DNA of 64,000 nt from assembly GCA_026770705.1 (NCBI GenBank), contig JANJGN010000026.1:5890001-5954000 (forward strand), read 5' to 3'. Shown piece after piece: positions 36,101 to 64,000 of this stretch (its first letter is position 1; each line of letters begins with the position of its first letter). Position numbers: made by a program. The stretch comes from Isurus oxyrinchus (taxonomy: Eukaryota).

Positions 36101-39100
36101 CAATCTGTTTCCCATCCTCTCTCACACCACCATTCAGGACATTTGAAACAACAACGTAAAATGCTATGAAAGCTCAGCAGGTCTGACAGCATCCATTAAG
36201 AAAAAGACAGAGTTAATGTTTTGAGTCCGTATGACTCTTCTTCAGAGTCTTTTTCTTCTCTGAAGCAAAGACATACGGATTCGAAACGTTAATTTCCTTT
36301 CTGTCCACGGATGCTGTTGGAACTGCTGAGTTTTTCCAGCATTTTCTGCTTGTGCTCCAGATTTACAGCATCCACAGTATTTTGCTTTTACCGTTCAGGA
36401 TATCCCTCCACTGTTAGCAGTATTTATTTTTAGCCACCACCGTTGCGCTCCCCAGTTTCCCTGTCCTTTCCTAGGCTCGGAAAGACTCAATGGACGCACG
36501 GTCCCTTTAAGATGCCAAGAACTCATTCCCTGGGGGGCACAGTCCTGAGTCAACAGTCACAGGCGGAACAAACCTCCCTGCTGAGCGGAGGCTGTGGATG
36601 ACCCGTGATCACTTGATTGTGGGAAATTACGAATCACGGTCGATATATGTTATGGTCCCATGAGTGTTGAAATTGAATGGCTATTTTAATGAGAAGGGAA
36701 GTAATTTTTTCTTTCAATCGAAACACTCTTTTCAATAAACAGCAGGCACGAGCAGGGTATGACTTCACGATAACATGGCCTTCGCCGATTGGTCATGTAG
36801 CGAATGACGTCACAGTTCTTCGAACACGTCGCTGCACCGTGATTAGTTTTTTTTCATTAAAGTCGACTGTGCACTAGTTCATTATTCTTACTCTGGATTT
36901 TACTATATCCTTTTCGACCTTCACCCTAAACCTTATGAGACAATGATCGCTAACACTTTTATGTTTCCCAGTGACACTCGATCTACCTGTCCAACCTCAT
37001 TTTCAAGAGCCAAGTCTAGCAGTGCGTCCTTCCTTATTGTACCAGACACATACAGCGGTAGAAAATTCTCCTGAACACAATCTAGGAGCTCTTGCCCTTC
37101 TCTGCCCTTTACACTGCGACTATCCCAGTCTATATTCGGGTAATGAAAGTCCCCCATTATTACTATTCTTTCATGTTTGCACCTCTGTGATCACCCTGCA
37201 GAGTTGTTCCATTACAACCTTCCCACTGGCAGGTGGACGACAGATAACACCGAGCACTTAAAGGCACTTTTTTTCGCCAAAATGATTCTGTCCTTCAACC
37301 TTCTGGGACATCCTCTTTCTGCAGCATTGCAATGCTCTCCTTAACCAATACCGTCACCCCCGTTCTTTTCTTCATGCAAAATCTTTCCTGCACACCTTGC
37401 ACACAGGAATTTTTAGCATCCAGTCCTGCACTTCCTTGATCCTGTTGAAATCGGAAGGCTATGAAACAGAAAGCCAGAGGCAGCATGGCCGAATTTATGA
37501 GAGATTTGCAGTAAGGTGATGCAGTGCATACTTTCCAAGGCAGTAAGTGCACAATTATCTTGAGGCTGCTTTAAAAACTCACATTGCAACTTATAACATT
37601 AGACAAGCATATTAATATCGATAATCACATGACAATCCTGCAGCCTGTATGCATATTTCTTGTCCTGTTTGAAAATTCTTGACTCGGGGCATTTTCTACC
37701 ACAGCTTGTGCATCATTTTGTGTTTAAAGGGTTTTTCATGTATATGAAAGTGTTAGAAAAAATTGAAAAGTTTTAAAGTCCGTCGAAGTGTTTTAAATCA
37801 TAACAAAACACTCATCTGCCTTCGGCCTGAAAAGGGACCCCATGCAGCTTGTATCCGGCGTGTGACGTCAGGAGGGGCGCACCGTCGCCAGAAGCCTATG
37901 CTACTTTTCACAGATCATTTTGTCCATGGGCAAAGCATCAGCCAAAGGATTAAATTCTGGCGACAGCCACTGAACCAGTCAAATTGGGATTCCTCAGAAC
38001 GATCAGGGCCAAATGCCTCTCATTCACCCCTGACCACAAAATCCAGGTCGGTATCTTTTTATGAGAAAATAAATTGTGATCATGCTGCAATCTCTGAGCG
38101 TCAACTCCATTGAAAAAAAAAACTTTTTATTCCCCCAAAACATAAACGTCAGTCCTGAAGCAGCTCGGCTAAACTGTTTTTATTTTAAATTAATGTAATT
38201 AATGCAAAGGATCAAACCACCTAACTAACTCCCTGGAGCTTCACAGCAGTTATAAATGTGACAATCTTTCAGTGATGTGCAGAAGGCATTCAGAACATTT
38301 GTTAAAAATGCACGGATCAACAAAAGACCTTCTGTCTGCCATTTATTATCCAGTCCTTGCAACTATCGGGGTTCCAGGTGAAGTACTTAGTAATTCGATA
38401 CTGAAATCGGTTATCTGCAGGAATTCTACCATTTAGAAGCATTGAATATCCATAATGTAATACCCATTCTCCCATTTCGCCCTTTATCTATATAATTGTC
38501 CCCATTAATGGGGCAACTTTCCTCTTTTAACAAGTATATTTTTCCCCTCTAAAAGCACTTTTTTCCCACTTTATAGGTATAATGTCTCAATTTTGACAAT
38601 ATAATTTGTTCCCTTTGCCTAAAATTCTCGCCGCTAATGGCCTAATAATATGCTATTAATATGCTATTAATAATATGCGCAGGGTGCAATGACTCGCTGT
38701 TAGTGGCATAATATAAACTTGTTCAAAACAACATTTCACAATTTAAGTGCTATCATATCACCCTGCTAAGTGTGCAATTTCTTGCTGTTAGTGATAAAAT
38801 ATTACTCTTTTCAGGGTGAAATTTCTCGCTGTTACCGGTATAATATCACCCTTATAAGGGTGTAATTTTTCGCTTCAAGTGGTATTATATTACCCTGTTC
38901 AACGGTGTTTTGCACCATTTAGTTCTGGTGTATTTTCACCCTGTTATCACAGTGCAAATGCCTTTCTATTCTGTTACTGACATCGTTGCTGGACGAGAAT
39001 TATCACATTGTAATCACGGAGGATGTGTGATCATCTTCTGTTACTGCAGGTGTATTTTAACACTGACATTGCAGTCTAAATGTCTTTCCATTCTGTTTCC

Positions 39101-63100: not shown

Positions 63101-64000
63101 GGATCACGATAGTCAGAAAGTTAGCTATTAGGCAGAGAGAGAGGGAGAGAGAGAGAGAGAAAGAAAGAGAGGAGAGAGAAGGGAAGAATTAATGCTCAAA
63201 CTCCCAGCTGGACCATCAGTTTGGCTGGAGAATAGTATGGCATATGGACCATCAATAATTCATTCACCGCTGGAACTGATTAGTTTACCAGTGTATTAAT
63301 GCTGGTCCTTTTTTTATTTATATTGTCCCAAATAAACTGGAAGTCGGAATATAAATAACACAAAACAATTATTTTCCGATTCATGAAAATTTTATGTAAC
63401 CTAGAAGTTGAATGTATTGAGCTTCACTAACGTGACGAAAGGGCATTGAAAATGGCATAAAAATACAGATGAAAAATCACTACATTTATTCATTTAAAAA
63501 TACGGTAAATAATGTTATGAAACATTAAACCACTTTAATAGTGAAACCAATCGGATGACAGGAAATAAGATATGGGTAATAACGAATTCTTAACAAATAT
63601 CAGAAGGAACCAAGGAACAATGCAAAAGAAAAGTTGAGCCAACACCATTGATTCAATTTGGGTTTTGCCCCTGTGGAAACAAGTCAAAGCTCATCAAAGG
63701 CTTTATTGCAGTTCAGTGATTGCTGTAATGGGAGGTTAGGTCTCGCAGTAGTAGTGAGAATTTTCAACTGTTAAAGCAGAAAGGCCTCGGTTTAGAGCCT
63801 CATCAGAAGGACGACAGAATAGATAGTGTTGAATTTGCTCAGGGTCATGGAGCTAGGCTTCCGACACAAGGTCGGAAGTAGGGCTCAAACACAGGGTTTT
63901 CCGAATGAACAGTGAGATTTCAAAATTAATTTCGGCTAAATAAAGTGGCTATGAGAATAAGGAATTCCGGCTCTGAAGGTTATCACACATACTTGACAAC

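What the first reader, a model, noticed from the sequence alone, without database searches (positions are those of the whole stretch)
38308..63124. Four-copy GPR139/142-like cluster interleaved with IgM relics
Seen: four copies in 25 kb on both strands, one intact and three dead, with the order IgM-TM, GPCR(psi), IgM-TM, ZNF relic, GPCR, GPCR(psi), GPCR(psi). Established: GPR139 is single-copy in mammals, and shark Ig loci are multi-cluster. Inference: rapid birth-and-death evolution, possibly co-amplified with Ig clusters as an [IgM 3' end + GPCR] unit.
Basis: partly seen in the sequence, partly recalled or inferred. Interest (0 to 1): 0.65.

Follow-up and report, generated by a model that had tools for sequence, protein, structure and literature searches.

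The report
Orphan GPCR gene cluster beside IgM relics
One intact and three decayed copies of an orphan receptor gene, only distantly like GPR139, lie next to decayed antibody (IgM) gene pieces; this is ordinary local gene duplication and decay, and nothing in this window shows that receptor and antibody pieces were copied together.

Summary
Four paralogous class A GPCR copies lie in 38.3-63.1 kb. Copy 2 (minus strand) is intact: two coding exons, a GT-AG intron and a 327-codon model. Copy 1 (plus strand) has 3 stops and 1 frameshift. Copy 3 has several stops and frameshifts. Copy 4 is a truncated 5' fragment. Two membrane-IgM TM exons exist, at 33.75 kb (outside the stated range) and at 45.9 kb. 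The "ZNF relic" is weak.

"GPR139/142-like" is only loosely right. GPR139 is the best solved relative, but at about 25% identity and 4-8 bits above other aminergic receptors. Only 1 of 6 GPR139 agonist-pocket residues is identical. The ESM Atlas places the protein among large chordate clusters auto-named "probable GPR139", so the family is already annotated.

Birth-and-death evolution is supported, but it is old rather than rapid (divergences 0.27-0.8; copy 1/2 dN/dS 0.28).

Co-amplification as an [IgM 3' end + GPCR] unit is not supported here. The duplications differ in boundaries, divergence and orientation. The genome-wide test could not be run.

The parts
38137..38307 (+). Copy 1 proximal promoter / 5' leader, homologous to that of copy 2
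   Evidence: blastn 38137-38390 vs 57225-56975, 70% identity. The alignment shows shared blocks TATAAATGT, GTGTAATTAATG and CTCCCTrGAG.
38308..38377 (+). Copy 1 (pseudogene) exon 1: ATG, 23 codons plus 1 base, donor CAG|GTGAAG
   Evidence: Sequence read. 65% aa identity to copy 2 exon 1.
40535..41443 (+). Copy 1 exon 2, dead: stops at 40597-99, 40736-38 and 40958-60; frameshift between 40716 and 40727
   Evidence: Pfam 7tm_1 E 4.1e-13 on the read-through of 40727-41440. dN/dS versus copy 2 is 0.28.
45390..47209 (+). Orphan duplicate of the 3' end of an IgM gene (TM-B): TM1 exon 45916-46023, TM2, AATAAA near 46619, plus flank. It is homologous to 33239-35029.
   Evidence: blastn 70% over 1363 columns. 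An extension, 34608-35029 vs 46798-47209, is 63% identical. TM1-B matches membrane mu at E 5.2e-5. The acceptor AG of TM-A reads GG in TM-B. No CH exon relic lies nearby.
53242..53289 (+). Possible decayed C2H2 zinc-finger relic (weak)
   Evidence: zf-H2C2_2 E 0.0048, 17.6 bits, below the cut-off of 40. The finger-like frame with stops was seen by eye.
54761..55674 (-). Copy 2 (intact) exon 2: acceptor tcacag|CT, 303 codons in frame, TAA stop at 54763-54761
   Evidence: ORF. The acceptor was read and the stop. Pfam 7tm_1 E 1.5e-19, covering profile positions 2-260 of 260.
55675..56986 (-). Copy 2 intron (GT...AG, 1312 nt, phase 1)
   Evidence: Only short patches of 59-73% identity to the copy 1 intron.
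56987..57056 (-). Copy 2 exon 1: ATG, 23 codons plus 1 base, donor CAG|GTAAAG
57057..57225 (-). Copy 2 proximal promoter / leader with a TATAAATGT box about 50 nt upstream of the ATG
60454..61291 (-). Copy 3 exon 2, long dead: several stops and frameshifts, TM3-TM4 unrecognisable
   Evidence: tblastn E 2e-30. 0 Pfam families on its two read-through pieces. JC distance 0.50-0.53 to copies 1 and 2.
62961..63124 (-). Copy 4: truncated 5' fragment of exon 2 (TM1-TM2 only) with one frameshift
   Evidence: tblastn E 1e-06. It is part of the duplication 61121-62094 vs 62961-63995, spacing 1840 nt, which runs off the window end. JC distance 0.27 in both the exon and intron parts.
33239..35029 (+). Context, outside the stated range: 3' end of a decayed IgM gene (TM-A). 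TM1 exon 33755-33870, TM2 34009-34017, AATAAA near 34458.
   Evidence: Matches membrane mu at E 5.9e-9.

Best explanation
The region is a small local cluster of a two-coding-exon, rhodopsin-class (class A) orphan GPCR gene. It belongs to a large family that annotation pipelines call "probable GPR139". That family is a distant relative of GPR139/GPR142, not an orthologue.

One gene, copy 2, looks functional. It has a TATA-type promoter block, an ATG, and a 70-nt exon 1 that encodes the very short N-terminus and the start of TM1. A phase-1 GT-AG intron follows, then a 914-nt exon 2 with the rest of the seven helices, the DRF and NPFIY motifs, and a stop. The joined model is 327 codons by arithmetic. 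It was not assembled or searched.

The other three copies are pseudogenes of different ages. The cluster grew by at least three separate DNA-level duplications:
- An old whole-gene duplication gave copies 1 and 2. Promoter, both exons, intron patches and a 3' flank patch still align. dS is about 0.8 and dN/dS is 0.28, so both copies were long under purifying selection and copy 1 died late.
- An older split gave copy 3.
- A younger 1.84-kb tandem partial duplication created copy 4 already truncated.

The IgM TM pieces come from an independent 1.8-kb duplication of the 3' end of a neighbouring, already decayed IgM gene.

Inferred, not shown: the intact receptor signals through G proteins in response to an unknown small ligand. 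That ligand is probably not the aromatic amino acids that activate GPR139, because the pocket is not conserved.
For: Anatomy:
- Four loci found by tblastn, with lesions.
- Splice sites and the ATG are at the same place and phase in copies 1 and 2.
- Promoter blocks are conserved.
- The stop is followed by AATAAA.

Family:
- Pfam 7tm_1 is the only family, at E 1.5e-19 and full length.
- GPR139 is the best of 46 distinct PDB sequences at E<=1.
- The three best of 30 ESM Atlas hits (score 0.97) are chordate clusters of 154, 190 and 82 members auto-named "probable G-protein coupled receptor 139". Their representatives are 326, 264 and 328 aa.
- PMC7318219 (passages) says GPR139 has two exons.
- PMC6504862 (passages) describes the non-mammalian orphans GPR210A/B next to GPR139/142.

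History:
- dN 0.23, dS 0.80, dN/dS 0.28 over 295 codons.
- JC distances: c1-c2 0.33, c1-c3 0.53, c2-c3 0.50, c3-c4 0.27. The c3-c4 value is equal in exon and intron.
- Copy 1 and copy 2 share a 3' flank patch and intron patches at 59-73% identity.

IgM pieces.
Against: - No expression or function data exist, so "intact" means only an open, spliceable frame.
- By the alignment, TM6 lacks the usual W-x-P (it reads Y-L-L) and TM5 has no proline. Copy 1 shares this TM6, so it looks like a family trait rather than a lesion. This is not proven.
- The single-sequence AlphaFold model was poor (mean pLDDT 44.9) and gives no support.
- The margin of GPR139 over other class A receptors is small.
- No phylogeny could be made.
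- The age ranking of the duplications rests on different kinds of sites (dS versus non-coding JC) and on short alignable patches.
Confidence: 0.8

Rival explanations
1. One reading: an [IgM 3' end + GPCR] segment is the unit of amplification, so GPCR copies multiply together with Ig clusters.
For: - The pieces do alternate: TM-A, copy 1, TM-B, then copies 2-4.
- The TM duplication (JC about 0.35; 63% identity in its extension) is of the same broad order of age as the GPCR duplications.
- The spacing of the two TM segments is 12.15 kb, and that interval includes copy 1.
Against: - TM homology covers 33239-35029 vs 45390-47209 only. The remaining 3.1 kb up to copy 1 has no counterpart after TM-B: 0 further HSPs at E<=0.01 in 46715-54760, and 0 in 57226-60440.
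- A 12.15-kb tandem unit predicts a plus-strand GPCR near 50.5-53.6 kb. tblastn at E<=10 finds none there.
- Copy 2 is inverted relative to TM-B, tail to tail.
- There are two TM pieces against four GPCR copies.
- Copy 1/2 neutral divergence (dS 0.80, 3' flank 59% identity) exceeds that of the TM segments.
- The copy 3/4 duplication (1.84 kb) contains no Ig sequence.
Confidence: 0.1
2. A functional reading that can coexist with the best explanation: the family is a chemosensory receptor family, expressed one or few per sensory neuron. This would explain the clustering and the high share of pseudogenes.
For: - Clustered paralogues, 3 of 4 dead.
- Very short N-terminus and tail.
- Large paralogue numbers in chordates are suggested by the ESM Atlas clusters.
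- The promoter blocks shared by copies 1 and 2 include TAATTAAT and TCCCTrGAG. These resemble homeodomain and O/E (EBF) sites of odorant-receptor promoters. Those consensus motifs are recalled from memory and were not tested here.
Against: - There is no Pfam 7tm_4 (odorant receptor) match. 7tm_1 is the only family at E<=0.01.
- The O/E-like block matches the recalled 10-mer only partly.
- No expression data exist.
- In PMC11979771 (passages), the 50 genes most specific to the catshark "brain & olfactory epithelium" library included no GPCR.
Confidence: 0.15
3. All four copies are dead. Copy 2 is an unprocessed pseudogene that merely has not yet acquired a stop.
For: - The TM6 and TM5 motifs are non-canonical.
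- Copy 2 sits among three pseudogenes and a decayed IgM gene.
Against: - The frame is open over 23 + 303 codons, with intact ATG, GT-AG and stop.
- dN/dS is 0.28 even when measured against a pseudogene partner.
- The Pfam match is full length.
- By three-point JC distances computed, the copy 2 branch (0.15) is shorter than the copy 1 branch (0.18) and the copy 3 branch (0.35).
Confidence: 0.12

Closest known systems
GPR139 / GPR142 (vertebrate orphan class A receptors for aromatic amino acids)
   Same: - GPR139 is the best solved relative.
- Both have two coding exons (for GPR139; here).
- The splice junction here restores G-V-P-A-N where the GPR139 chain in the alignment reads G-L-P-A-N.
- R at 6x51 is kept.
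- By the alignment, both lack a Cys at 3.25.
   Different: - Identity is about 25%, against 70% between human and zebrafish GPR139.
- Pocket residues 3x33, 5x43, 6x48, 7x38, 6x51 and 3x32 read Y, A, Y, R, R, N here, against F, H, W, N, R, E in GPR139.
- This gene is multi-copy with pseudogenes.
- It is shorter: 327 codons, with almost no N-terminus or tail.
- TM7 is NPFIY here, against NFFLY in the GPR139 chain.
GPR210A/B, non-mammalian orphans placed with GPR139/GPR142 (PMC6504862; passages seen)
   Same: They are relatives of GPR139/142 that are absent from mammals and present in several subtypes in coelacanth, gar and ray-finned fishes.
   Different: No sequence of that group was available here, so membership is untested. 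In the passages and term counts seen, that survey does not mention elephant shark (0 occurrences).
Chordate protein clusters auto-named "probable G-protein coupled receptor 139" (ESM Atlas)
   Same: They are the top three hits at score 0.97. Their representatives are 326, 264 and 328 aa, against 327 here.
   Different: The names are automatic, and there is no alignment or E-value. Whether the window's gene belongs to one of these clusters is not shown.
Birth-and-death receptor clusters (odorant, TAAR and similar gene families)
   Same: Local duplicates on both strands, a high pseudogene fraction, and partial duplicates that are born dead.
   Different: No family membership: 7tm_4 is not matched, and the coding region is split by an intron.

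Membership tests
Rhodopsin-class (class A) GPCR, Pfam 7tm_1 | Full-length match to the 7tm_1 profile above the gathering score | tested here: met
   71 bits against a cut-off of 30.5, E 1.5e-19, profile positions 2-260 of 260
Rhodopsin-class (class A) GPCR, Pfam 7tm_1 | D/E-R-Y/F at the end of TM3 and N-P-x-x-Y in TM7 | tested here: met
   DRF and NPFIY are present in copy 2, and also in copy 1
Rhodopsin-class (class A) GPCR, Pfam 7tm_1 | C-W-x-P in TM6 | tested here: not met
   By the alignment, positions 6.48 and 6.50 are Y and L. Copy 1 has the same. This motif is common in the class but not universal (recalled).
GPR139/GPR142 clade | Phylogenetic placement with GPR139/142 to the exclusion of other class A receptors | tested here: inconclusive
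   GPR139 is the top PDB hit, but by only 4-8 bits over the M4 muscarinic receptor.
GPR139/GPR142 clade | Orthologue-level conservation (70% human-zebrafish; PMC7318219 passages) | tested here: not met
   About 71 identities in 288 aligned positions, counted by eye
GPR139/GPR142 clade | Agonist pocket F3x33, H5x43, W6x48, N7x38, R6x51 and E3x32 (PMC5430874, abstract and passages) | tested here: not met
   1 of 6 is identical (R6x51) and 1 of 6 is conservative (F to Y), by the alignment. The TM5 column is unreliable because of gaps.
GPR139/GPR142 clade | Two-exon gene | tested here: met
   Two coding exons here. GPR139 has two exons. Whether the intron position is the same was not checked.
Membrane IgM (mu) transmembrane exon | Match to the TM segment of membrane mu, better than to other isotypes | tested here: met
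   TM-A: E 5.9e-9 to mu isoform 2, against 0.0011 to gamma 1. TM-B: 5.2e-5 against 0.52.
C2H2 zinc-finger protein (the "ZNF relic") | Pfam zinc-finger match above the curated cut-off | tested here: inconclusive
   zf-H2C2_2 scores 17.6 bits against a cut-off of 40, E 0.0048. Nothing was found in the six-frame scan or by the finger regex.
Odorant receptor (Pfam 7tm_4) | Match to 7tm_4; single coding exon | tested here: not met
   7tm_1 is the only family listed at E<=0.01. The coding region is split.

The most novel reading that the evidence does not exclude
The family could be an unrecognised chemosensory or immune-cell receptor family of cartilaginous fishes that is physically embedded in the IgH mini-cluster region. 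It would then expand and decay through the same segmental duplications that multiply Ig clusters. The promoter blocks shared by copies 1 and 2 are a homeodomain-like TAATTAAT and an O/E (EBF)-like TCCCTrGAG. They would fit expression in olfactory neurons or B-lineage cells. Nothing in this window excludes that, but nothing tests it either.
Probability: 0.08. Interest if true: 0.65.

Novelty: new member of a known kind. Interest (0 to 1): 0.3.

Why it matters
As it stands, this is a routine annotation result: one probably functional orphan GPCR gene and three pseudogenes next to a decayed IgM gene.

It would matter more under either of two conditions:
- A genome-wide survey showed a systematic association of this family with Ig clusters. 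That would be a hitch-hiking gene family in the most duplication-prone immune loci of vertebrates.
- The family proved to be chemosensory in a lineage known for very few classical odorant receptors. That point is recalled from memory, not tested here.

The gene model and lesion map given here are the starting material for both tests.

Tried and rejected
- Single-sequence AlphaFold2 of exon 2 gave mean pLDDT 44.9 and pTM 0.32. That is too poor, so no fold search was run.
- Exon 1 alone (23 aa) against the PDB gave 0 hits at E<=10.
- Six-frame stop-as-X Pfam scans of 46700-54702 and 41450-45402 gave 0 families at E<=0.1 in 12 of 12 frames. No CH-exon, TE or ZNF domain was detected that way.
- Regex searches for C2H2 fingers and TGEKP linkers found nothing convincing.
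- tblastn with the CH2, CH4 and TM-A peptides found no further Ig relic besides TM-B.
- No exon 1 was found for copies 3 and 4. The best candidate, 63611-63567 (-), has E 3 and is not significant.
- LINE-like ORFs seen by eye (49284-49595, 37295-37570, 20079-20441) gave 0 Pfam families.

Literature:
- "GPR139" plus "shark": 4 papers, none relevant by title or abstract start.
- "GPR139-like": 0 papers.
- "coupled receptor 139": 44 papers, 40 listed, none on cartilaginous fishes by title.
- "GPR210": 4 papers, of which only PMC6504862 is about receptors.
- PMC12227049, on elasmobranch IgH linkage: 0 occurrences of GPR, GPCR or "G protein" in the main text.
- Searches were unproductive.
- Supplements are closed and may hold gene lists that bear on this.

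Assembly duplication was rejected because the copies are 23-38% diverged. Retroposition was rejected because the introns are retained.
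Full report
**Scope and limits**

The window holds one N run, 29672-29802, which I left alone. The source organism was not determined by any search. It is consistent with what I saw but not tested. The tools search for homologous proteins and the search of protein representatives, the metagenome and viral contig collections, and paper supplements were closed. So no phylogeny and no genome-wide map could be made.

The joined exon 1 + exon 2 product was not assembled, searched or folded. Its length of 327 codons is arithmetic from the coordinates.

**1. The observation**

A stop-to-stop ORF of 320 codons lies at 54761-55723 on the minus strand. It is a full-length rhodopsin-class receptor: Pfam 7tm_1, E 1.5e-19, profile positions 2-260 of 260, and the only family at E<=0.01.

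tblastn with it found four loci and no more in the 64 kb:
- Copy 1, plus strand, 40537-41440, E 2e-101.
- Copy 2, the query itself.
- Copy 3, minus strand, 61289-60454, E 2e-30.
- Copy 4, minus strand, 63122-62966, E 1e-06.

The lesions are these:
- Copy 1 carries three in-frame stops (40597-99, 40736-38, 40958-60) and one frameshift (40716-40727).
- Copy 3 carries at least four stops and a frameshift near 60703. Its TM3-TM4 stretch no longer aligns sensibly, and Pfam no longer recognises its pieces.
- Copy 4 is only the first ~54 residues of exon 2, with one frameshift.

So "four copies, both strands, one intact, three dead" is correct.

**2. Gene anatomy**

The ORF of copy 2 has no ATG near its start. 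The gene is split.
- Exon 1 is 57056-56987. It has an ATG, 23 codons and one extra base, and the donor CAG|GTAAAG.
- The intron is 56986-55675.
- Exon 2 is 55674-54761, with the acceptor tcacag|CT. Its TAA stop is followed after 3 nt by AATAAA.

Copy 1 has the same structure at the same phase. Its exon 1 is 38308-38377, the intron is 38378-40534, and exon 2 starts at 40535.

The two exon-1 peptides are 65% identical. About 170 nt upstream of the ATG also aligns. The shared blocks are TATAAATGT about 50 nt upstream, GTGTAATTAATG, and CTCCCTrGAG. The splice restores G-V-P-A-N at the start of TM1, where the GPR139 chain reads G-L-P-A-N.

No significant exon 1 was found for copies 3 and 4. The best candidate has E 3, at 63611-63567.

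**3. What family**

Among solved structures, GPR139 is the best hit: E 2.7e-7 and 33.6 bits for the ORF, and 29.9 bits for exon 2 alone. The M4 muscarinic receptor follows at 25.8 bits, and serotonin receptors at 20-23 bits.

Counting the match line by eye gives about 71 identities in 288 positions, or 25%. Real GPR139 orthologues are 70% identical between human and zebrafish, and the gene has two exons (PMC7318219, passages).

The GPR139 agonist pocket was defined by mutagenesis as F3x33, H5x43, W6x48 and N7x38, with R6x51 and E3x32 as the polar part (PMC5430874, abstract and passages). On the alignment, the residues here are Y, A, Y, R, R and N. One of six is identical and one is conservative. 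The TM5 column is unreliable.

The ESM Atlas feature search placed exon 2 next to three chordate clusters of 154, 190 and 82 members. They are auto-named "probable G-protein coupled receptor 139". Their representatives are 326, 264 and 328 aa, and the score is 0.97.

A survey of vertebrate class A receptors describes non-mammalian orphans, GPR210A/B, beside GPR139/142 in coelacanth, gar and ray-finned fishes (PMC6504862, passages).

My reading is that this is a member of an already annotated, lineage-expanded orphan family. The family is distantly tied to GPR139/142 and is not GPR139 itself. It probably has a different ligand.

**4. History of the GPCR copies**

Copies 1 and 2:
- Over 295 codons, dN is 0.23, dS is 0.80 and dN/dS is 0.28.
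- Identity by codon position is 76%, 81% and 63%.
- Outside the exons they share only the ~170-nt promoter block, short intron patches of 59-73% identity, and a colinear 3' flank patch of 59% identity about 330-550 nt after the stops.
- This was an old whole-gene DNA duplication. Both copies stayed under purifying selection for most of the time since.
- Three-point JC distances give branches of 0.18 for copy 1, 0.15 for copy 2 and 0.35 for copy 3. So copy 1 died late and copy 3 died long ago.

Copies 3 and 4:
- They belong to a tandem duplication with a 1840-nt spacing, 61121-62094 vs 62961-63995, which runs off the window end.
- The JC distance is 0.27 in both the exon and intron parts, so evolution has been neutral since.
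- The left boundary lies inside exon 2, so copy 4 was born truncated.

None of these distances is small. "Rapid" is not the right word for this birth-and-death process.

**5. The Ig pieces**

Upstream lies a decayed IgM constant region.
- A C1-set exon at 18.8-19.1 kb scores Pfam E 1.5e-15. Its best PDB hit is Ig heavy constant mu at E 1.8e-27.
- A last constant exon at 27.5-27.96 kb has lost the first domain cysteine (it reads ...SLSYLVKGF...).
- That exon also has a frameshift before the FSCVVGHEA motif.
- It also reads GGT TGA where a secretory tail continues.

TM1-A (33755-33870), TM2 (34009-34017) and an AATAAA near 34458 follow. TM1-A matches human membrane mu at E 5.9e-9.

A second copy, TM-B, lies at 45390-46714, at 70% identity over 1363 alignment columns. 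With more sensitive scoring, the homology extends to 34608-35029 vs 46798-47209 at 63% identity. The duplicated segment is therefore about 1.8 kb.
- TM1-B still has an open frame, but it is more diverged (E 5.2e-5 to mu).
- Its acceptor AG reads GG.
- No CH relic accompanies it.

**6. The co-amplification idea**

Within this window I see four points against a single [IgM 3' end + GPCR] unit.
- First, TM homology ends at 35029, which is 3.1 kb before copy 1 homology starts at 38137. The rest of that interval has no counterpart after TM-B or upstream of copy 2 (0 HSPs at E<=0.01).
- Second, a 12.15-kb tandem unit predicts a plus-strand GPCR at about 50.5-53.6 kb. None is found even at E<=10.
- Third, copy 2 is tail-to-tail with TM-B, and copies 3 and 4 arose by a duplication that contains no Ig sequence.
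- Fourth, the TM segments (JC 0.35 overall, 0.32-0.40 in non-coding parts) are less diverged than the neutral sites of copies 1 and 2 (dS 0.80; flank 59% identity).

The fourth point is the weakest, because different kinds of sites are compared. A genome-wide association is not excluded. It simply was not testable here. The one paper seen on elasmobranch IgH linkage does not mention GPCRs in its main text (PMC12227049), and its supplements are closed.

**7. The "ZNF relic"**

A frame at 53203-53640 (+) reads like decayed C2H2 fingers when examined by eye. Pfam gives zf-H2C2_2 at E 0.0048 and 17.6 bits, below the cut-off of 40. It is plausible but unproven.

**8. Verdict**

The family label is loosely right. 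The mechanism is ordinary local duplication and decay. Co-amplification with Ig pieces is not supported in the window. This is a new member of a known kind, of modest interest.

Noticed in passing
window 27526-27965 (+): The last IgM constant exon is dead. The first domain Cys is replaced by Tyr. There is a frameshift before the FSCVVGHEA motif. TGA replaces the codon after ...KSTG at the place where the secretory tail continues and, from memory, where the TM splice donor lies. The neighbouring IgM gene is therefore a pseudogene.
   Followed up: partly
window 38190-38260 and 57110-57180 (-): Promoter blocks are conserved between copies 1 and 2 although the introns have almost fully diverged. 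The blocks are GTGTAATTAATG (homeodomain-like), CTCCCTrGAG (partly like an O/E/EBF site; that consensus is recalled from memory) and TATAAATGT.
   Followed up: partly
window 28900-31350, around the N run 29672-29802: A long CA/TG-rich simple-repeat tract with strong strand skew (GC skew -0.2 to -0.3, AT skew up to 0.43) lies between the last IgM constant exon and TM-A.
   Followed up: no
window 20079-21016 (-): ORFs that look by eye like LINE reverse-transcriptase pieces lie between IgM constant exons. The one piece sent to Pfam (20079-20441) matched no family.
   Followed up: partly
window 31705-32031 vs 32636-32322: An inverted repeat pair of about 327 nt at 80% identity lies upstream of TM-A.
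   Followed up: no
window 38681-39365 (copy 1 intron) and 56444-56605 (copy 2 intron): A tandemly repeated unit in the copy 1 intron is weakly homologous to a single segment of the copy 2 intron (59-73% identity). The repeat expanded only in copy 1.
   Followed up: partly
window 44231-44662 vs 50403-50707: Weak inverted homology (59-68% identity) links two GC-rich stretches, one on each side of TM-B. It is probably a dispersed repeat.
   Followed up: no
window 63567-63611 (-): A possible decayed exon 1 lies about 450 nt upstream of the copy 4 fragment (...YLLRIRYYPYL... against ...DLLSAIYYPVL...). E is 3, which is not significant.
   Followed up: partly
window 41810-41996 vs 54429-54257: A colinear 3' flank patch is shared by copies 1 and 2 (59% identity over 188 nt, E 0.002). 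It suggests a 3' UTR of at least 500 nt. The site used would then be the ATTAAA at 54171, not the AATAAA right after the stop.
   Followed up: partly
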